Below are positions 16,069 to 49,291 of a DNA stretch of 54,749 nt, piece by piece (within the stretch, counting starts at the first letter, position 1; each line of letters begins with the position of its first letter). The translations under genes were made by a program, and so were the position numbers. Below the pieces are notes generated by a model. The model saw only the letters and a program-made list of their open reading frames with translations, made no database searches and had not been told where the DNA came from. Origin of the DNA: Dehalococcoidia bacterium (GTDB taxonomy: Bacteria; Chloroflexota; Dehalococcoidia; Lucifugimonadales; JAGWBF01); contig JAGWBF010000003.1 in the NCBI GenBank assembly GCA_021296025.1, positions 1 through 54,749 of the forward strand, read 5' to 3'.

Positions 16069-16307
16069 TACGCCACATCTCCAGCGTGGGATAGATTCAC
16101 CCAGTTATCACCTTGGTCGCAACCGGCCTTTTCCAGTATATCAGAGCCAGGGTTGCCCTTTCATCCCGCCCCACGGGCGGGAGAGTTCCGAAGAGAATGA
16201 TGGACCGGATGAAATATAGCTTTTCCTGTCGTCATGGGGGAGAATATGACAATCGGCCGTACTTCATTCTTAGCCGCCCTCATGATGATAAAGCGAGAGG
16301 TGCATCC

Positions 16308-18350
16308 ATGCCCAACCATCTCATCAACGAGACCAGTCCATACCTGCTCCAGCACGCCAACAACCCGGTGGACTGGTACCCCTGGGGTGAGGAAGCCCTC
16401 TCCAAGGCCCAGGGGGAGGACAAGCCCATCCTCCTGAGCATCGGGTATTCAGCCTGCCACTGGTGCCACGTCATGGAGCGGGAATCCTTCGAAGACCCCG
16501 GCATCGCGCGGATAATGAACGAGAACTACGTGTGCATCAAGGTTGACCGGGAAGAGAGGCCGGACCTCGACAGCATATACATGAACGCTGTCCAGGCCCT
16601 TACCGGCGGCGGTGGCTGGCCTATGACCGTGTTTCTCACCCCCGATGCCCGTCCCTTCTATGGAGGCAACTACTTCCCACCCGAGGACCGGGGAGGCATG
16701 GTCGGGTTTCCCAAACTGTTGGCGCGGGTCGCCGAAGCCTTCAGGAGCAGGCGGGGAGAGGTTGTGCAGACCACCAACGAGCTGCTGAACCACATTCAGC
16801 CCTCTCCTCCAGCCCGGAGCGCCGACCCCTTGAGCTCCGAGGTCCTGCACGATGCCATGGCCACCCTGGTGCAAGGGTTCGATTTCGACAACGGAGGCTT
16901 TGGCTCCGCTCCCAAGTTTCCACAGCCAATGATCTACGAGTTCCTGCTCAACTATCACCACATCAACAAGGACCCCTTCGCTCTGCAGATGGTGGAGATG
17001 TCGGCGGAGAGGATGGGGCGCGGCGGGATGTACGACCAGATCGGCGGGGGCTTCCACAGGTACTCGACCGATGCCCACTGGCTGGTGCCCCACTTCGAGA
17101 AGATGCTCTACGACAACGCCCTGCTCAGCAGGCTTTACCTGCACCTCTTCCAGGCAACGGGCAACGGCTGGTACCAGCGCATCGCCGAGGAGACCCTGGA
17201 CTATGTGCTGCGGGAGATGACTGACCCGGCTGGAGGCTTCTACTCCACCCAGGACGCCGACAGCGAGGGGGTGGAGGGCAAGTTCTTCGTCTGGTCAATA
17301 GACGAGATTGCAGGCTTGCTGGGGCCGGTCGACGGGCCCATCGTGGCGGGTTACCTGGGGGCCTCCGAGGCCGGTAACTTCGAGGGGCGCAACATCTTTC
17401 ACCTTCCCGAGGCGACTGGACCGTACGCCGAGAAACACGGGCTGTCCATAGAAGAGCTAATAGATAAGGTGCAGCAGGGAAAGGCCTCTCTCCTGGAGGA
17501 GCGGGAGACCCGCATCCATCCCGCCCGGGACGAGAAAGTGCTCACTGCATGGAACGGACTGATGATCCGCAGCTTCGCCGAAGCCGCCTCAATTCTGGGG
17601 CGAGACGACTACAGGCAGGCAGCTCTGAACAGCGCGACCTTCATTCTGGACAATCTCCGGAAGGACGGCCGCCTCCTCCGCACCTACAAGGATGGCCAGG
17701 CGAAGCTGAACGGCTATCTTGAGGACTACGCCTGCATGGCCCATGGTCTGTTGGCCCTGTACGAGGCAACCTTCGACGCCCGATGGTTCGATGAAGCCAA
17801 CGCCCTTGGGAGGGACATGGTAGACCTGTTCTGGGATGAGGCCCAGGGCATCTTCTATGACACCAGCCGGGACCATGAAGCCCTGGTGGTGCGCCCCCGG
17901 GACTTCTTCGACAATGCGACGCCATGCGGAGGCTCGGTAGCTACCGGGGTCCTTCTTCAGCTGGGGGTATTGACCGGGGATGGTGAATACTCCCGGCGAG
18001 CATCGGCCGCCATGCACGCAGTCCAGCAGCACTTGGCGCGAATCGCTCAAGGGATGGGACGCTGGCTGGCCAACGTGTGCTTCTACACCTCGGCCCCCAA
18101 GGAGATCGCCATCATCGGCGACCCATCGTCGGCGGACACTCAGGCCCTGATGAGGGAGGTCTACCAGCGCTACCTTCCTAACAAGGTTGTGGCCGGCGCC
18201 GGTGCCCCCGTGGCCGACGACCACGCTACGCCCCTGCTCCAGGAGCGGGGGATGATCGACGGCAAGCCCACGGCTTACGTCTGCGAGAACTACTCCTGCC
18301 AGCTTCCTGTAACAACCCCCGAGGAGCTGGCCTCCCAGCTGGAGCAGTAG
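16308..18350 (+). CDS. Thioredoxin-domain protein (DUF255 / YyaL / SPATA20-like, N-terminal Trx fold plus six-hairpin glycosidase-like domain)
   Basis: [24 protein letters not shown]...[18 protein letters not shown] is the DUF255 signature. I chose the ATG at 16308. The upstream part of the track ORF lies in the divergent intergenic region. Confidence 0.85.
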
Positions 18351-45637: not shown

Positions 45638-46375
45638 TCACCGGCCCCTGGTGTCTCCCCACAGGTAGATGTGCAGACGGGGGCTGAACCGCAGGTTTTC
45701 GTTCACGCAAAGCTGGCTCAGCCAGTCGCTCCGCTCCTGCAGCACCGAAGAGGTGCGCCCCTCGGGGGAAAGGAGCACCCGCTCCCTGGAAAGAGACATT
45801 TCATCCATAAGCCTGCGGACCTCTTCCACGTCCGATTCCCTCGTAACCACGAACTTGAAATAGGCCTGCGAGATAGCTGCGAAGGACTTTAGCGCCTCCG
45901 GGACATAGCGTTCCTCCGACGTATTCCCCGACGTGTCAAGCTTGGGAGAGACGTTCCACTGATCGATAAGCGCACCCATTTCAGGCGTGGGCGCGATGGT
46001 GCCGTTGGTCTCCACCTCGAAGGTGAATCCCCGGCCCTTAAGCGATCGGACCAGCCCAGCCATCTGGTCCTGCTGCAACATCGGCTCTCCCCCGGTGATG
46101 ACAAGATGGGAACAGCCGTATTGCAGCACCTCGTTTTCGACGTGTTCTGGCGAGAGTTCCACAACCTCTTTTTGGAAATCGTAGTTCTTCCAGTCCCAGG
46201 TGTACTTGGTGTCGCACCAGGTGCAGGCCAGGTTGCACTGGGCCAGCCTCAGAAACACCGCTGGTGTCCCCGCCATCGTACCTTCGCCCTGAAGGGTGTG
46301 AAATATCTCCGGCCTGCCTTCGGGTCGACAGCTTACTTTCAACAACGTTTCCGAAGGGTGGGAATCCGTATTCAC
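45638..46375 (-). CDS. queE: 7-carboxy-7-deazaguanine synthase (radical SAM)
   Basis: TLQGEG...CNLACTWCDTKYTW cluster motif. Last gene of the que operon. Confidence 0.88.
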   Translation of the reverse strand: MNTDSHPSETLLKVSCRPEGRPEIFHTLQGEGTMAGTPAVFLRLAQCNLACTWCDTKYTWDWKNYDFQKEVVELSPEHVENEVLQYGCSHLVITGGEPMLQQDQMAGLVRSLKGRGFTFEVETNGTIAPTPEMGALIDQWNVSPKLDTSGNTSEERYVPEALKSFAAISQAYFKFVVTRESDVEEVRRLMDEMSLSRERVLLSPEGRTSSVLQERSDWLSQLCVNENLRFSPRLHIYLWGDTRGR

Positions 46376-47121
46376 GACGTTCCGCCCTTCAACCTTACCA
46401 GCAGGGGGTCGGGGTGCCCCGCCTCTTGAAAGCCCTTTGCCCGCAGAATACAGCTGTCGCAGGTACCGCAGGGTTCAGGGCCTCCCTGGTAGCAGCTCCA
46501 GGTGTTGGTGAGGGGAGCATCTAGATCCTTGGCCCATCGGACTATCTCCCCCTTGGACAGGTGGATGATGGGGGTCTCAATATTCATCGGGATGTTGTAC
46601 TCGCTCCACAGCTTGCTCCCGTACTTTAGGACCTCTTTCATCTTCTCGAAAAACTCGGGGCGGCAATCGGGATACCCGCTGTAGTCGATAGCATTGGGGG
46701 CCATGAACAGCGTGGCCTGAATCTCATCCGCCTTCAACTTCTCCTGCTCAATGGCCCACAGAGCCTGGCTCTCCAGGTAGGCGGCGCTGACGGTGATGAA
46801 GAAGGTGTTGCGTAGGGGAACGTAGGAGCTGGGAATGGACTGGCCCATCTGGCTTGCGTCTCTTTCCTCGGGCAGGGCGATGACGTCGGGGCTGGTCAGG
46901 GCCGAATACCAGGCGACCTTCCCAAAGGACGACACATCCACCAGCTCATGGCGGATGCCCAGGGATGCGCTGACCTGGCGGGCGCTGTCCAGCTCCGTGC
47001 TGTGGATCTGGCCGTAGTAGAAGGTGAGGGCCGTCAGCCGGTCGGTCCTGTGCTTGGCATATGCCGAAACGGTGGTGGAGTCCAGCCCGCCGGAGAGCAG
47101 GGTGACGCCGATGCTGACCAT
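46372..47121 (-). CDS. queC: 7-cyano-7-deazaguanine (preQ0) synthase
   Basis: LLSGGLDSTT PP-loop and the C-terminal zinc site CYQGGPEPCGTCDSCILR. Confidence 0.9.
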   Translation of the reverse strand: MVSIGVTLLSGGLDSTTVSAYAKHRTDRLTALTFYYGQIHSTELDSARQVSASLGIRHELVDVSSFGKVAWYSALTSPDVIALPEERDASQMGQSIPSSYVPLRNTFFITVSAAYLESQALWAIEQEKLKADEIQATLFMAPNAIDYSGYPDCRPEFFEKMKEVLKYGSKLWSEYNIPMNIETPIIHLSKGEIVRWAKDLDAPLTNTWSCYQGGPEPCGTCDSCILRAKGFQEAGHPDPLLVRLKGGTS

Positions 47122-47549
47122 CAGGAGGCTGATCTATATTCAGCGTACTGGGTAGAGGACTCCCACATACGGACAGCTGCCGGTTCGATGCCGCAAAGCT
47201 CCTCGGTCTTGCGGTATATCTCCCGGGCCATCACCTCCGCCGACGGGTTCACCCCATCGAAAAGGTAGATGAACTGCTCCTTGACCCCCCGTAGAGCTTC
47301 CAAAAGCTCGCCGTCCTTGCTGTTCAACAGGAATGCGTGGTCCCAGTTGGCATCGATCCACGAGGACACCTTCTGCTTCAGCTCGCTGAAATCCACCACA
47401 AATCCCACTGAATTCAGGGCATGGGAAGCCATGAAAATTTCGACCTTGTAGTTGTGGCCGTGGGGATGGATACACTTGCCATTGTGGCCCAGGAGCCGGT
47501 GACCGGCGGAGAACTCCATCTCCACCCGGACCTGGTAGTCGTCCTTCAT
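47121..47549 (-). CDS. queD: 6-carboxy-5,6,7,8-tetrahydropterin synthase
   Basis: 142 aa with FSAGHRLLGHNGKCIHPHGHNYKVE. Confidence 0.9.
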   Translation of the reverse strand: MKDDYQVRVEMEFSAGHRLLGHNGKCIHPHGHNYKVEIFMASHALNSVGFVVDFSELKQKVSSWIDANWDHAFLLNSKDGELLEALRGVKEQFIYLFDGVNPSAEVMAREIYRKTEELCGIEPAAVRMWESSTQYAEYRSAS

Positions 47550-47571
47550 CGCCGTCGCCTGATGAGACCGC

Positions 47572-48015
47572 TCAAGAGGGCAAGCCCTCTCCTGGGTACG
47601 TGGCGGTAACGACTGTGTGCAACCCTCCCCGGACCTTGTAGTCCAGCACTACCTCCATGCAGCGGGGCTTGCACGCACCCACCAAGTCGTCCAGGATACG
47701 ATTGGCGGCGCTTTCCTGCACGATCCCCACATCCCGATAGGACAACAGGTAGTACTTTAGGGACTTTAGCTCGATGCACAGCTCGTGAGGCTCGTAGGTA
47801 ATGCTCAGCGTGCCGTAGTCGGGAAGGCCCGTCCAGGGGCACACGGCGGTGAATTCGTCGGTGTCTATGCGAACTGTGGACTCTCCACAAGAAGGCTCGT
47901 AGTCAAAGGACATAATGATGGCGCTGTCGATGGACGCCTCCGGTCCATCCTGTATGAGCCTGTCCAGGTTCTCGTAGCGTTCCTTCAGCGATTCTATAGA
48001 TGCCATGTCCGCCAC
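47572..48015 (-). CDS. queF: NADPH-dependent 7-cyano-7-deazaguanine reductase (unimodular type)
   Basis: 147 aa with the catalytic Cys context FTAVCPWTGLPDYG and the IELKSLKYYL motif. GTG at 48015 or ATG at 48006. Confidence 0.88.
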   Translation of the reverse strand: MADMASIESLKERYENLDRLIQDGPEASIDSAIIMSFDYEPSCGESTVRIDTDEFTAVCPWTGLPDYGTLSITYEPHELCIELKSLKYYLLSYRDVGIVQESAANRILDDLVGACKPRCMEVVLDYKVRGGLHTVVTATYPGEGLPS

Positions 48016-48149: not shown

Positions 48150-48178
48150 TTGTCATTCCTAGGGCCCTGGGGTATCCT
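48150..48178 (+). promoter_or_regulatory. Weak candidate promoter for the divergent FTR-like operon
   Basis: TTGTCA (48150-48155), a 17-nt spacer, then TATCCT (48173-48178). If used, the first gene must start downstream of 48178, for example at TTG 48232. Confidence 0.25.
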
Positions 48179-48621
48179 TGTTGTATCTGGCAGATACGGG
48201 AGGGCCCCTGGCCCAAACGGGGGAAAAGGCGTTGAAAGACCAAGCCCCAAACGGCGCAGCGGCCGAGACCGAACTGCTCCAATCTCCGGCAGAGCTGGAG
48301 GAGATACAGGAGCTTTTGAAAGAGGCGGTAGCTTCGGAGCCCTCCCTTCGCCTGTTGCCCAAATTCGGCATGGCGCGGGCCGGCAGTCCCGACTTCCACA
48401 GGACCTACTTTGCTATCCACTGCACCTGTGGGACGGCGGGTCTTGTTTGTATAGAAACAGCCAAGTCCAAGACCCTGTCCCAAGTTGAGGATGCGCTGCC
48501 TTCCCTGAAGCAGCACCTGGTGGGCAGGGCCAAGCAGTTTGCAAGCATGCCATGCTCAATGCACACCAGCATGCGCTCTGCGGGCATCCAGGCTTCAATG
48601 CCAGGAAGTGGGGGAGGCTGA
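48178..48621 (+). CDS. Uncharacterised protein, first gene of the FTR-like operon (start uncertain)
   Basis: 147-aa ORF with a coding-like helical acidic segment (ELLQSPAELEEIQELLKEAV), then a Cys/His cluster (HCTCGTAGLVC ... MPC). I recognise no family. Its TGA at 48619-48621 is 1 nt from the ATG of the next gene, and the RBS of that gene lies inside this ORF. Confidence 0.45.
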   Translation: MLYLADTGGPLAQTGEKALKDQAPNGAAAETELLQSPAELEEIQELLKEAVASEPSLRLLPKFGMARAGSPDFHRTYFAIHCTCGTAGLVCIETAKSKTLSQVEDALPSLKQHLVGRAKQFASMPCSMHTSMRSAGIQASMPGSGGG

Positions 48622-48622
48622 T

Positions 48623-49039
48623 ATGGCGAAGGAACTGGACCAGGACAAGGCGATGGAAGGCACCATCCGCTTCTCGGAAAAGTACGTCGAGAAGAGCGGG
48701 TACAAGTTCTTTCCCGACCAGGAGGTGGTGCGCCTAGTACAGGAGGGCCTGGCCCGCAACCAAGTGGAGTACGGCTACCGCTACTGCCCTTGAATGCCCC
48801 TCAGCGGCGATCCCGTCGAGGACCGCAAAAAGATTTGCCCCTGCGACCGGCACCATGAGGATATAGAGAGGGACGGGTTCTGTATCTGAATGTTCTTTGT
48901 CAGCGAAGAGTTTCTTCGCCAACAGGAACAGGGTAGTGAGATCGAACAGACCATTGGCGATGCAGTCCAGCCCGGCGAGGGCCTGTTTGACCAACCATAT
49001 AAATCGAAGGCAGACCAGAAGGGGAGTCAGAGTACTTAG
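48623..49039 (+). CDS. Ferredoxin:thioredoxin reductase catalytic-subunit (FTR-beta) homolog with two in-frame TGA codons (48791-48793, 48887-48889); candidate double-selenocysteine protein (U57, U89)
   Basis: GGGGGAGG RBS 6 nt before ATG 48623. Read-through translation: MAKELDQDKAMEGTIRFSEKYVEKSGYKFFPDQEVVRLVQEGLARNQVEYGYRYCP-U-MPLSGDPVEDRKKICPCDRHHEDIERDGFCI-U-MFFVSEEFLRQQ...ST*. It aligns with cyanobacterial FtrC (...YAKRTDTYFCSD..VVIEGLARHKEELGSPLCPCRHY...WNCPCVPMRERKECHCMLFL). The CPC/CPC/CHC pattern becomes CPU/CPC/CIU. All three pieces are in one frame. Confidence 0.7.
48799..48821 (+). promoter_or_regulatory. SECIS-like hairpin after the first UGA of the FTR-like gene
   Basis: CCUC-A-GCGG-[CGAUC]-CCGU-C-GAGG: two 4-bp helices around an A/C mismatch, beginning 5 nt after the UGA. 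This is the weakest of the four hairpins. Confidence 0.3.
48903..48919 (+). promoter_or_regulatory. SECIS-like hairpin after the second UGA of the FTR-like gene
   Basis: GCGAAG-AGUUU-CUUCGC: a perfect 6-bp stem (7 bp with the A-U closing pair, leaving a GUU loop), beginning 13 nt after the UGA. Confidence 0.45.
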
Positions 49040-49054
49040 AGGAGCTGAGAAGCT

Positions 49055-49291
49055 GTGAGCATAACCGTTTACACATCCGTTGGTTGAGGCCCCTGCCACA
49101 TGGTGAAAGTGTACCTTTCACAAAAGGGGTTGGAGTTTACCGAACGGAACGTTTCACTGGACGAAAACGCAAGGGATGACCTGCTATCCCTGGGATATCG
49201 CAGCACACCCGTGACTGTGATAGACGACCAGAAGGTCGTCGGGTACAGCCCTCCCAAGCTGGAAGAAGCCCTGCAAGCGGCCGGGATCTAG
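49055..49291 (+). CDS. Glutaredoxin/NrdH-like small redoxin with an in-frame TGA at 49085-49087; candidate selenoprotein with a U-G-P-C active site
   Basis: GAGGAG RBS 10 nt before GTG 49055. Translation: MSITVYTSVG-U-GPCHMVKVYLSQKGLEFTERNVSLDENARDDLLSLGYRSTPVTVIDDQKVVGYSPPKLEEALQAAGI. The track ORF (49100..49291) starts after the active site and lacks beta-1 and the CxxC loop. Reading through the TGA restores a complete Grx fold with the Sec at the first CxxC position. Confidence 0.7.
49103..49121 (+). promoter_or_regulatory. SECIS-like hairpin after the UGA of the redoxin gene
   Basis: GUGAAAG-[UGUAC]-CUUUCAC: a perfect 7-bp stem with GU in the loop, beginning 15 nt after the UGA. Confidence 0.45.

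What the first reader, a model, noticed from the sequence alone, without database searches (positions are those of the whole stretch)
48623..49039. FTR catalytic-subunit homolog in which both cysteines of the redox-active disulfide are encoded by UGA (putative diselenide/selenol active site)
**Seen in the sequence.** One frame, opened by a strong RBS plus ATG at 48623, carries three short pieces separated only by TGA at 48791 and 48887, and ends at TAG 49037.

**Homology.** Joined, the pieces form a recognisable ferredoxin:thioredoxin reductase catalytic chain: FSEKYVEKSGYKFF..VQEGLARN..YCP-U-...ICPC...FCI-U-MFFV, against the canonical LCPC...NCPC...CHCMLF.

**Established knowledge.** In Synechocystis FTR the [4Fe-4S] ligands are Cys55/74/76/85. 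The redox-active disulfide that contacts the cluster and attacks thioredoxin is Cys57-Cys87.

**Inference.** The two TGAs fall on exactly those two positions, and all four cluster ligands stay Cys. If the TGAs are read as selenocysteine, the enzyme would use a Se-Se or Se-Fe chemistry next to the cluster. Natural proteins with paired Sec residues are very rare, and I do not know of a described Sec-containing FTR. Standard gene callers and the six-frame track miss the gene completely.
Basis: partly seen in the sequence, partly recalled or inferred. Interest (0 to 1): 0.9.

Follow-up and report, generated by a model that had tools for sequence, protein, structure and literature searches.

The report
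Known double-selenocysteine FtrB reductase gene
This is a genuine gene for an iron-sulfur disulfide reductase in which both active-site cysteines are replaced by selenocysteine, but the family was predicted in 2008 and already has a curated database model; what this analysis adds is its conserved gene partners.

Summary
ORF 48623-49039 (+) has in-frame TGA at 48791 and 48887. With U read as C it matches Pfam FeThRed_B and, at full length, NCBIfam NF041072 "FtrB family double-selenoprotein" (226 bits, cut-off 160). The TGAs align with the second Cys of the CPC and CxC motifs of solved FTR/FDR structures, and all four cluster ligands stay Cys. All 81 related loci, nearly all Dehalococcoidia MAGs, keep TGA at both sites. 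Each TGA is followed after 13 nt by a conserved hairpin with GU in its loop and strong synonymous-codon constraint. TGA is otherwise the window's commonest stop.

The novelty claim fails. A two-Sec FTR was reported from the GOS metagenome in 2008 and is listed in reviews from 2022 and 2026.

Added here:
- The gene is the middle of a conserved three-gene module.
- Upstream lies an unannotated small protein with an invariant CxC...CxxH signature.
- Downstream lies a glutaredoxin-fold redoxin whose thioredoxin-type motif is U-G-P-C, with its own UGA and hairpin.
- In one subclade, but not in this window, the module sits inside glycine/betaine-reductase clusters.

Sec insertion itself and the sel genes of this genome could not be tested.

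The parts
48178..48621 (+). Upstream conserved ORF ('UP'). These are the maximal ORF coordinates and the true start is uncertain. The conserved core runs from about 48271 to 48600. It is a small protein with invariant C-x-C...C-x-x-H. Its TGA stop (48619-48621) lies 1 nt before the FtrB ATG.
   Evidence: - Present directly upstream of FtrB in 80 of 81 loci.
- Invariant residues C51, C53, T55, E62, P77, F90, M93, C95, H98 and R102.
- 100 homologs, all unannotated.
- No Pfam or NCBIfam hit.
- Confident AF2 model, pLDDT 86, with no PDB structural match.
48610..48617 (+). Shine-Dalgarno-like GGGGGAGG, 5 nt upstream of the FtrB ATG.
   Evidence: Read directly from the sequence.
48623..49039 (+). 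FtrB family double-selenoprotein gene: 138 codons, with Sec at residues 57 and 89.
   Evidence: - NF041072: 226 bits against a cut-off of 160, aa 3-123 matching profile 1-121 of 121.
- PF02943, E 3.7e-26.
- PDB relatives 4TPU, 7PWE and 1DJ7.
48791..48793 (+). UGA-1 (Sec57). It aligns with the second Cys of the CPC motif (Cys57 of Synechocystis FTR).
   Evidence: TGA in 81 of 81 loci. A single variant, L086, has TGC.
48807..48826 (+). SECIS-like hairpin 1: stem GCGAUCC / GGACCGC, loop CGUCGA, 13 nt after UGA-1. In this window the stem has one internal A.C mismatch.
   Evidence: - Alifold consensus.
- Codon constraint: Gly GGC 77/82, Glu GAG 79/82, Arg CGC 80/82, and Asp codons biased to GAT against the gene-wide GAC preference.
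- 92.9% of cells paired.
- The two mismatching variants never co-occur.
48887..48889 (+). UGA-2 (Sec89). It aligns with the second Cys of the C-x-C motif (Cys87 of Synechocystis FTR).
   Evidence: TGA in 81 of 81 loci.
48903..48919 (+). SECIS-like hairpin 2: stem GCGAAG / CUUCGC, loop AGUUU, 13 nt after UGA-2.
   Evidence: - Codon constraint: Ser AGC 81/82, Glu GAG 82/82, Leu CTT 82/82.
- 100% of cells paired, and all 29 changes are wobble-compatible.
- The segment folds with z = -3.18.
49055..49291 (+). Glutaredoxin-fold (NrdH/YruB-like) small redoxin with a thioredoxin-type active site U-G-P-C. GTG start, with AGGAG at 49040-49044.
   Evidence: - PF00462, E 3.6e-14.
- TIGR02196 at 72.8 bits and NrdH at 60 bits, both below their cut-offs.
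- Present next to FtrB in 80 of 81 loci.
49085..49087 (+). UGA-3: Sec at the N-terminal position of the UxxC motif of the Grx-like protein.
   Evidence: TGA in all 77 distinct homologous sequences examined.
49103..49121 (+). SECIS-like hairpin 3: stem GUGAAAG / CUUUCAC, loop UGUAC, 15 nt after UGA-3.
   Evidence: - Codon constraint: Val GTG 76/77, Lys AAA 71/77, Leu CTT 77/77, Ser TCA 76/77.
- The hairpin is part of the minimum-free-energy fold.

Best explanation
The ORF is a functional gene of the FtrB family double-selenoprotein (NCBIfam NF041072) in a Dehalococcoidia (Chloroflexota) genome.

Recoding:
- Both in-frame UGAs are recoded to selenocysteine.
- Each is served by a short hairpin that starts 13 nt downstream and carries GU in its apical loop (a bacterial-type SECIS).

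Enzyme (inferred from FTR and FDR):
- The product is a single-domain [4Fe-4S] enzyme of the ferredoxin:thioredoxin / ferredoxin:disulfide reductase type.
- Cys55, Cys72, Cys74 and Cys87 (window numbering) hold the cluster.
- The redox-active pair next to the cluster is Sec57/Sec89 instead of Cys/Cys.
- By analogy with FTR, one-electron input from a low-potential donor cleaves the Se-Se bond.
- Sec89 is then transiently held on a cluster iron, while exposed Sec57 attacks the oxidised partner.

Partner (inferred):
- The cognate partner is most likely the co-transcribed 78-aa glutaredoxin-fold redoxin. Its thioredoxin-type motif is U-G-P-C, so the relay is selenium-to-selenium.
- A third conserved gene, UP, is translationally coupled upstream. 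It encodes a small protein with an invariant CxC...CxxH signature. This could be a metal-binding accessory or electron-input subunit.

What is shown: gene identity, the positions of the UGAs, their conservation, the hairpins and the three-gene module. Actual Sec insertion, the cluster chemistry, the donor and the final targets are all inferred.
For: Identity:
- NF041072 at 226 bits against a cut-off of 160, full profile length.
- PF02943.
- Significant matches to solved FDR and FTR chains, with the U residues on the second Cys of CPC and of CxC.

Recoding:
- TGA at both sites in 81 of 81 loci from about 80 species-level genomes, with constant spacing.
- The protein is conserved downstream of both TGAs, with free synonymous variation outside the hairpins.
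- Synonymous-codon entropy is 0.25 in stem codons and 0.74 elsewhere, Mann-Whitney p = 6e-6.
- 96.2% of cells are paired, against 19-62% for slid registers. Helix 2 is 100% paired, with only wobble-compatible changes.
- TGA is an ordinary stop in 13 of 28 long ORFs of the window.
- Database 'W/W' homologs are TGA/TGA in the DNA.
- Cys/Cys homologs exist (P0013 and P0014).
- Dehalococcoidia MAGs are among the most selenoprotein-rich bacteria, with 46-49 genes (PMC13326102).

Module:
- UP and the Sec-Grx lie adjacent in 80 of 81 loci.
- The Grx UGA and its hairpin are conserved.

Precedent:
- An FTR-like FDR that passes electrons to an NrdH-like redoxin, and FDR reducing a Trx in Methanosarcina.
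- A Sec-Grx serving a Sec-enzyme, described as 'tandem use of Sec'.

Prior description of the family: PMC2398784.
Against: - No selA, selB, selC or selD gene was found. The first 26 kb of the window were scanned by family search, the rest was inferred from synteny with L001, and the only tRNA in the whole window is tRNA-Asn. The Sec machinery of this genome is therefore unverified.
- The hairpins show no two-sided compensatory substitutions. Structural support rests on conservation at synonymous sites and on wobble compatibility, not on classical covariation.
- In this window hairpin 1 carries an internal A.C mismatch, and its single-sequence minimum-free-energy fold is a different hairpin.
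- No Rfam family matched.
- No experimental work on any member of this family turned up in the library searches run here.
- The link from FtrB to the Grx is guilt by association only.
Confidence: 0.88

Rival explanations
1. The TGAs are decoded as a standard amino acid (Trp, Gly or Cys), through a reassigned genetic code or near-cognate read-through, rather than as selenocysteine.
For: - Public gene calls translate homologs with Trp at both sites (P0001-P0009).
- No tRNA-Sec or sel gene was seen in the DNA examined.
Against: - TGA terminates 13 of 28 long ORFs in the window, including full-length matches to Mdh and HemL-like profiles.
- GC content is about 60%, unlike known code-4 or code-25 lineages (the latter point is from my own knowledge).
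- The TGAs sit only on catalytic Cys columns of three redox motifs. Trp or Gly there would abolish the redox pair.
- Each TGA has a dedicated conserved hairpin at a fixed distance.
- The W/W proteins come from short contigs and do not translate under code 11.
Confidence: 0.05
2. The gene is a pseudogene, or the TGAs are sequencing or assembly errors in a Cys-type FtrB.
For: - One related contig has TGC at site 1 (L086).
- One database protein has Ser at site 1 (P0011).
Both show that single-base variants of this codon occur in assemblies.
Against: - The same two TGAs occur in 81 of 81 independent assemblies, including long-read complete chromosomes.
- The frame stays intact and conserved through to the C-terminus, with 121 of 121 profile positions matched.
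- The hairpins show synonymous-site constraint.
Confidence: 0.01
3. Translation mostly stops at the first UGA, giving a 56-aa peptide, and read-through is rare or regulatory. For example, it could be selenium-dependent attenuation of the downstream Grx gene rather than production of an enzyme.
For: - UGA recoding is generally inefficient in bacteria (own knowledge).
- Three UGAs in one short operon would make expression strongly selenium-dependent.
Against: - The protein sequence after UGA-1 and UGA-2 is the most conserved part of the gene. It holds two of the four cluster ligands plus the conserved C-terminal extension.
- A 56-aa fragment would carry only one cluster ligand.
Confidence: 0.03

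Closest known systems
NCBIfam NF041072 'FtrB family double-selenoprotein'. This is the Sec-containing ferredoxin-thioredoxin reductase family of Zhang & Gladyshev 2008 (GOS read JCVI_READ_1093012271142; example MCS5647748.1).
   Same: - Full-length equivalog-level match.
- Two Sec at the two redox-active Cys positions.
- SECIS predicted after the UGAs.
   Different: Nothing material: the window gene is an ordinary member. The papers I could read list only the protein. They do not describe the three-gene module, the UGPC redoxin partner or the Dehalococcoidia distribution.
Ferredoxin:disulfide reductase (FDR) of Methanosarcina (PDB 4TPU) and the FTR subunit B-like protein 7PWE.
   Same: - Closest solved relatives by sequence, E 5.8e-15 and 2e-12.
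- Non-photosynthetic FTRc-like enzymes with no variable subunit.
- Non-His residue inside the last CxC motif: Tyr in these structures, Ile here.
- An FDR works with an NrdH-like or Trx-like small redoxin.
   Different: - Those enzymes use Cys/Cys and carry an extra domain. 4TPU is annotated as a rubredoxin fusion of 173 aa, and 7PWE has a roughly 95-aa N-terminal extension.
- The window protein has the FTR domain plus a 40-aa C-terminal tail, uses Sec/Sec, and has a separate conserved partner, UP.
[quoted passage not shown]
   Same: - Same Pfam domain.
- Same CPC...CPC...CxC arrangement.
- Same inferred role of the pair next to the [4Fe-4S] cluster.
   Different: - FTRc is a heterodimer with a variable subunit (Pfam FeThRed_A). 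No such gene is here, and UP does not match it.
- FTRc has CHC where this protein has C-I-U.
- Sequence similarity is weaker, E about 1e-7 to 1e-8.
Selenoprotein glutaredoxin/thioredoxin (UxxC) and 'tandem use of selenocysteine' (the Clostridium Sec-Grx that reduces Sec-MsrA; Kim et al. 2011, cited in PMC13188914).
   Same: - The neighbouring gene is a Grx-fold protein with UxxC.
- It is paired with another selenoenzyme, so selenium hands over to selenium.
   Different: - The motif here is the thioredoxin-type U-G-P-C.
- The protein is NrdH/YruB-like, below those models' cut-offs and below the Uxx-star selenoprotein models.
- Its upstream reductase is itself a double selenoprotein.
Clostridial glycine reductase operons that carry trxB-trxA (own knowledge; thioredoxin reductase as the electron route to Grd is stated in PMC9751293).
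   Same: In 10 of 81 related loci the UP-FtrB-Grx module lies between grdA and grdE, inside a Grd cluster with no TrxB or TrxA nearby. That is where a reductant-supplying system would be expected.
   Different: - The window has no Grd gene anywhere in its 54 kb.
- The donor would be ferredoxin-type rather than NADPH.
- The functional link is untested.

Membership tests
NCBIfam NF041072 FtrB family double-selenoprotein | Whole-protein score above the curated equivalog cut-off (160 bits), over the full profile. | tested here: met
   226 bits, E 6.6e-68, aa 3-123 on profile 1-121 of 121, with U read as C.
NCBIfam NF041072 FtrB family double-selenoprotein | In-frame UGA at both positions of the redox-active pair, with the four cluster-ligand Cys retained. 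| tested here: met
   C-P-U ... C-P-C ... C-I-U. The alignments to 4TPU, 7PWE and 7BZK place U on the second Cys of CPC and of CxC.
NCBIfam NF041072 FtrB family double-selenoprotein | Selenocysteine is actually inserted: Sec machinery in the genome and Se in the protein. | not testable with these tools
   - No sel genes or tRNA-Sec in the window.
- Only class-level support is available: Dehalococcoidia MAGs with 46-49 selenoprotein genes.
Bacterial SECIS element | A stem-loop a short, fixed distance 3' of the UGA, with a conserved G (GU) in the apical loop. This definition is from my own knowledge of the bSECIS model. | tested here: met
   - Hairpins start 13, 13 and 15 nt after the three UGAs.
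- Their loops are CGUCGA, AGUUU and UGUAC.
- Stem codons are synonymously constrained, p = 6e-6.
- 96% of cells are paired, against 19-62% when slid.
Bacterial SECIS element | Base pairing supported by compensatory (two-sided) covariation. | tested here: inconclusive
   - Zero pairs show changes on both sides.
- There are 34 wobble-compatible one-sided changes.
- Helix 1 tolerates A.C mismatches at two internal pairs.
- The stems also encode invariant amino acids, which limits variation.
Pfam PF02943 FeThRed_B | Score above the gathering threshold. | tested here: met
   91.7 bits against 22, aa 11-104.
Classical heterodimeric FTR (chloroplast/cyanobacterial) | A partner variable subunit (Pfam FeThRed_A), and His between the last two Cys (CHC). 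| tested here: not met
   - The neighbouring UP has no FeThRed_A match even at E <= 10.
- Its fold is alpha/beta with no PDB match.
- The motif here is C-I-U.
Methanosarcina-type FDR (4TPU) | FTR-like domain fused to a rubredoxin domain. | tested here: not met
   - Only one Pfam domain is present in the 138-aa protein.
- The match to 4TPU covers chain residues 10-102 only.
Selenoprotein glutaredoxin (Grx, UxxC), for the neighbouring gene 49055-49291 | Glutaredoxin fold with Sec at the first position of the CxxC motif. | tested here: met
   PF00462 at 53.1 bits against 22.9. U-G-P-C with a conserved TGA.
NrdH / YruB / Uxx-star glutaredoxin-like families, for the neighbouring gene | Score above the NCBIfam curated cut-offs. 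| tested here: not met
   TIGR02196 72.8 against 88.55; TIGR02194 60.4 against 85.75; NF041212 43.1 against 66.

The most novel reading that the evidence does not exclude
UP, FtrB(Sec,Sec) and Grx(Sec) form a dedicated, self-contained reductase system specific to Dehalococcoidia, in which every thiol-exchange step is carried by selenium.
- UP would be a previously unrecognised metal-binding subunit (invariant CxC...CxxH). It would either feed electrons to the FtrB [4Fe-4S] cluster or stabilise FtrB, as the variable chain does in plant FTR.
- The system would replace NADPH-thioredoxin reductase and thioredoxin as the reductant supply for selenoprotein A of glycine/betaine reductase, and for other targets in lineages such as this window's.
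- That would tie osmolyte or glycine catabolism in marine SAR202-type bacteria to low-potential ferredoxin and to selenium supply.
Probability: 0.3. Interest if true: 0.6.

Novelty: already known. Interest (0 to 1): 0.35.

Why it matters
The enzyme itself is unusual. A pair of selenocysteines sits next to a [4Fe-4S] cluster, probably as a diselenide, and nothing experimental on it turned up in the searches run here. However, its existence has been known since 2008, and NCBI's annotation pipeline can name it, so the window adds one more instance.

The practical value of this analysis is the context:
- The hairpins that mark the three UGAs are now defined.
- The family is widespread in Dehalococcoidia: 215 species-level genomes gave hits, and the best 80 are all Sec/Sec forms.
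- The gene always travels with a Sec-containing mini-thioredoxin and an uncharacterised CxC...CxxH protein.
- In one subclade the trio is embedded in glycine/betaine reductase clusters.

This gives a concrete reconstitution experiment (ferredoxin, FtrB, Grx, GrdA) and flags a systematic annotation error. These genes appear in public protein sets either as fragments or with Trp in place of Sec.

Tried and rejected
- **Rfam at gathering thresholds** found only tRNA-Asn and no SECIS family.
- **tRNA-Sec search** in the window and in all fetched loci found none. This is uninformative, because only about 1 Mb of scattered flanks was covered.
- **NCBIfam scan of 20 long ORFs in window 1-26 kb** for selA, selB or selD found none, only housekeeping and catabolic enzymes. 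The rest of the window was annotated by synteny with L001: nuo operon, gltX, queCDEF.
- **Exact look-up of a window protein** to obtain the source contig failed; it is not on record.
I did not re-run it with a W/W homolog.
- **Strict hairpin scan of every in-frame TGA** in the window recovered two of the three known sites. Hairpin 1 is missed because of its A.C mismatch. The two further hits lie in junk frames, so there are no further selenoprotein candidates by this criterion.
- **Fold search of the UP model against the PDB** found nothing significant: best E 0.37, TM below 0.4. Pfam at E <= 10 gave one spurious hit.
- **A lower-stem extension of hairpin 2**, seen in the single-sequence fold, was rejected as a general feature. 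The 3' partner codons vary in amino acid across homologs.
- **The alternative minimum-free-energy hairpin after UGA-1** was rejected. Its pairs involve freely varying third positions: Leu codon +3 and Pro codon +7.
- **An apparent in-frame stop in one UP homolog** was only the true stop, overrun by the tblastn coordinates. UP has no Sec.
- **Literature:** nothing found for '7PWE'. Wei et al. 2015 (PMC4697749) is not held. Haft's 2022 preprint does not discuss FtrB.
Full report
**1. Observation**

- The ATG is at 48623, five bases after GGGGGAGG.
- In-frame TGAs lie at 48791-48793 and 48887-48889.
- The TAG stop is at 49037-49039.
- The joined product reads ...YRYCP-U-MPLSGDPVEDRKKICPCDRHHEDIERDGFCI-U-MFFVSEEFLR...

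**2. Identity**

- With U written as C, the 138-aa protein hits Pfam FeThRed_B across both TGAs (aa 11-104, 91.7 bits).
- More tellingly, it hits NCBIfam NF041072, "FtrB family double-selenoprotein". This is an equivalog model. The score is 226 bits against a cut-off of 160, and all 121 profile positions are covered.
- Against solved structures, the best matches are the Methanosarcina FTR-like ferredoxin:disulfide reductase 4TPU (5.8e-15) and 7PWE (2e-12). Plant and cyanobacterial FTR catalytic chains follow at about 1e-7 to 1e-8.
- In every printed alignment (4TPU, 7PWE and the plant FTRc 7BZK), the first U lies on the second Cys of CPC and the second U on the second Cys of CxC. The four cluster-ligand Cys are kept.
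- The residue between the last Cys and the Sec is Ile. It is Tyr in 4TPU and 7PWE, and His in photosynthetic FTRc.

**3. Are the UGAs real recoding sites?**

- A scan of one genome per species found 215 relatives. The best 80 are all Dehalococcoidia or other Chloroflexota MAGs, with the top hit 96% identical.
- Including one metagenome contig, 81 of 81 loci have TGA at both sites, always 96 nt apart.
- The protein sequence is conserved through and beyond both TGAs, while synonymous positions vary freely. For example, the invariant Val at codon +36 uses all four codons about equally.
- TGA ends 13 of 28 long ORFs in the window, and GC content is about 60%. The genetic code is therefore standard.
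- Public "homologs" with Trp at both positions (P0001-P0009) are mis-translated. P0003's DNA has stop codons there and does not translate to the database protein under code 11.
- Other database entries are fragments that end at the first or second TGA (P0012 and P0010; 57-aa calls).
- Cys/Cys relatives with CPC...CPC...CHC exist (P0013 and P0014).
- One contig has TGC at site 1 while keeping the downstream hairpin and the TGA at site 2 (L086). This is either a recent Sec-to-Cys change or an assembly variant.

**4. SECIS elements**

| UGA | Spacer | Hairpin coordinates | Stem | Loop |
|---|---|---|---|---|
| UGA-1 (FtrB) | 13 nt | 48807-48826 | GCGAUCC / GGACCGC | CGUCGA |
| UGA-2 (FtrB) | 13 nt | 48903-48919 | GCGAAG / CUUCGC | AGUUU |

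Codons whose bases lie in the stems are almost frozen at synonymous sites.
- Leu CTT 82/82, Ser AGC 81/82, Arg CGC 80/82, Gly GGC 77/82.
- The two Asp codons in stem 1 prefer GAT, although Asp elsewhere in the gene prefers GAC by about 9 to 1.
- The same amino acids outside the stems use four to six codons.

Quantitative tests:
- Over FtrB and the neighbouring Grx, normalised synonymous entropy is 0.25 in stem codons and 0.74 elsewhere (Mann-Whitney p = 6e-6).
- In the formal pair count, 96.2% of cells are paired, against 19-62% when partners are slid by one to three columns.
- Helix 2 is 100% paired, and all 29 of its changes are wobble-compatible.
- Helix 1 is 92.9% paired, with A.C mismatches at two adjacent internal pairs. 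These never occur together.
- There are no two-sided compensatory changes. This is strong conservation evidence, not classical covariation.

In this window hairpin 1 carries one A.C mismatch. Its single-sequence minimum-free-energy fold is a different hairpin, which the comparative data do not support.

**5. Prior knowledge**

- Zhang & Gladyshev (PLoS Genet 2008, PMC2398784) reported FTR catalytic-subunit selenoproteins from the GOS metagenome. [quoted passage not shown]
- Reviews from 2022 and 2026 list the family. The 2026 table gives NF041072, motif CxU, two Sec.
The gene is an ordinary member of a curated family.

**6. Context found here**

The gene is the middle of a conserved three-gene module.

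*Downstream: a Sec-containing redoxin*
- The ORF runs from GTG 49055 to 49291, with AGGAG at 49040.
- It encodes a 78-aa glutaredoxin-fold protein (PF00462).
- It is nearest to the NrdH and YruB families but falls below their cut-offs.
- Its active site is the thioredoxin-type U-G-P-C, with TGA at 49085-49087.
- That TGA is present in all 77 distinct homologs examined.
- It is followed after 15 nt by a third hairpin at 49103-49121 (GUGAAAG / CUUUCAC, loop UGUAC). The same codon freezing is seen there: Leu CTT 77/77 and Ser TCA 76/77.

*Upstream: the unannotated protein UP*
- The maximal ORF is 48178-48621, and its stop lies 1 nt before the FtrB ATG.
- It has no Pfam or NCBIfam family.
- It has 100 unannotated homologs.
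- Ten residues are invariant, among them C51-x-C53 and C95-x-x-H98.
- Its AlphaFold model is confident (pLDDT 86, alpha-beta3-alpha2 topology), with no structural relative in the PDB.

*Co-occurrence*
- UP and the Grx accompany FtrB in 80 of 81 loci. The exception is a 2.2-kb contig.
- The Cys-type FtrB P0013 instead sits next to a Trx-fold protein and has no UP.

**7. Link to glycine/betaine reductase in a subclade**

- In 10 of the 81 loci, and in three further contigs reached through distant UP homologs, the module lies inside a Grd cluster.
- Those clusters hold a GrdC/D-like gene, GrdA with its own in-frame TGA (CFVU), a GrdE-like gene and GrdB.
- In L044 the module sits between grdA and grdE, with no thioredoxin reductase or thioredoxin within 12.4 kb.
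- Grd needs a thioredoxin system for electrons (PMC9751293). These lineages therefore plausibly use UP-FtrB-Grx for that purpose.
- The window shows no such link. No Grd gene occurs in its 54 kb. The module is flanked there by queF-queD-queC-queE on one side and an OTCase-like gene on the other.

**8. Mechanism (inferred)**

- By homology with FTR and FDR, a low-potential one-electron donor would reduce the Sec57-Sec89 bond through the adjacent [4Fe-4S] cluster.
- Exposed Sec57 would then attack the selenenylsulfide of the U-G-P-C redoxin, which passes reducing equivalents on to targets.
- There is a precedent for an FTR-like enzyme working with an NrdH-like or Trx-like redoxin (Methanosarcina FDR).
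- There is also a precedent for selenium-to-selenium relays (a Sec-Grx with Sec-MsrA).
- The role of UP is unknown. Its invariant three Cys plus one His suggest a metal site.

**9. Limits**

- No sel genes or tRNA-Sec were found in the window, and the rest of the genome could not be reached.
- Support for Sec decoding in this genome is therefore indirect. It rests on the three hairpin-equipped UGAs and on the class-level fact that Dehalococcoidia MAGs rank among the most selenoprotein-rich bacteria.
- None of the library searches run here returned an experimental study of this family.

**10. Verdict**

- It is already known as a family, so novelty is low.
- Moderate residual interest lies in the conserved all-selenium module, the uncharacterised UP protein and the Grd linkage.

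Noticed in passing
window 49055-49291 (+), TGA at 49085-49087: A second selenoprotein gene lies directly downstream. It encodes a 78-aa glutaredoxin-fold redoxin with active site U-G-P-C and its own SECIS-like hairpin at 49103-49121. Gene callers start it at the ATG after the TGA, giving a 63-aa product.
   Followed up: yes
window 48178-48621 (+): A conserved, unannotated small protein (UP) is translationally coupled to FtrB. It has invariant C-x-C...C-x-x-H, no Pfam or NCBIfam family, and a confident AF2 model with no PDB match. Its function is unknown and its true start codon is uncertain. A TTG at about 48229 with an upstream GGGGGA is a candidate start.
   Followed up: partly
L037, L044, L045, L049, L051, L052, L074, L077, L079, L081, L082, L083, L085: In these loci the UP-FtrB-Grx module is embedded in a glycine/sarcosine/betaine reductase cluster: GrdA with an in-frame TGA, GrdB, a GrdE-like gene, a GrdC/D-like gene, and an ABC transporter in L044. 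The Grx is placed divergently. No TrxB or TrxA is nearby in L044.
   Followed up: partly
L086 positions 559-570 and 661-663: This is a natural or assembly variant with TGC (Cys) at site 1. The SECIS-1 hairpin is still intact, and TGA is kept at site 2. Database protein P0011 has Ser (one base from TGA) at site 1.
   Followed up: partly
Database proteins P0001-P0009 (for example L088 556-999): Public metagenome protein sets hold this family translated with Trp at both Sec positions, apparently from code-4 gene calls on short contigs. Other entries are fragments of 57, 84 or 88 aa. This is a systematic annotation artefact.
   Followed up: yes
Alignment A4 columns 117 and 123 (window 48907 and 48913): In hairpin 2, the change Glu GAA to GAG (A-U becomes G.U in the stem) usually co-occurs with Phe TTT to TTC at the last loop base. 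There are a few exceptions (L005, L037). This could be shared ancestry or a loop-stem interaction. It remains unexplained.
   Followed up: no
window 16113-18347 (+): A 745-aa ORF has only one weak NCBIfam hit. It is 27 bits, over aa 85-149, to a segment of the rhodanese/DsbD fusion-like selenoprotein TsoB, far below that model's cut-off. I did not examine it further.
   Followed up: no
window 45638-48015 (-): A queE-queC-queD-queF (preQ1 synthesis) cluster lies divergently upstream of the module. The same arrangement is seen in L001. No functional link is evident.
   Followed up: no
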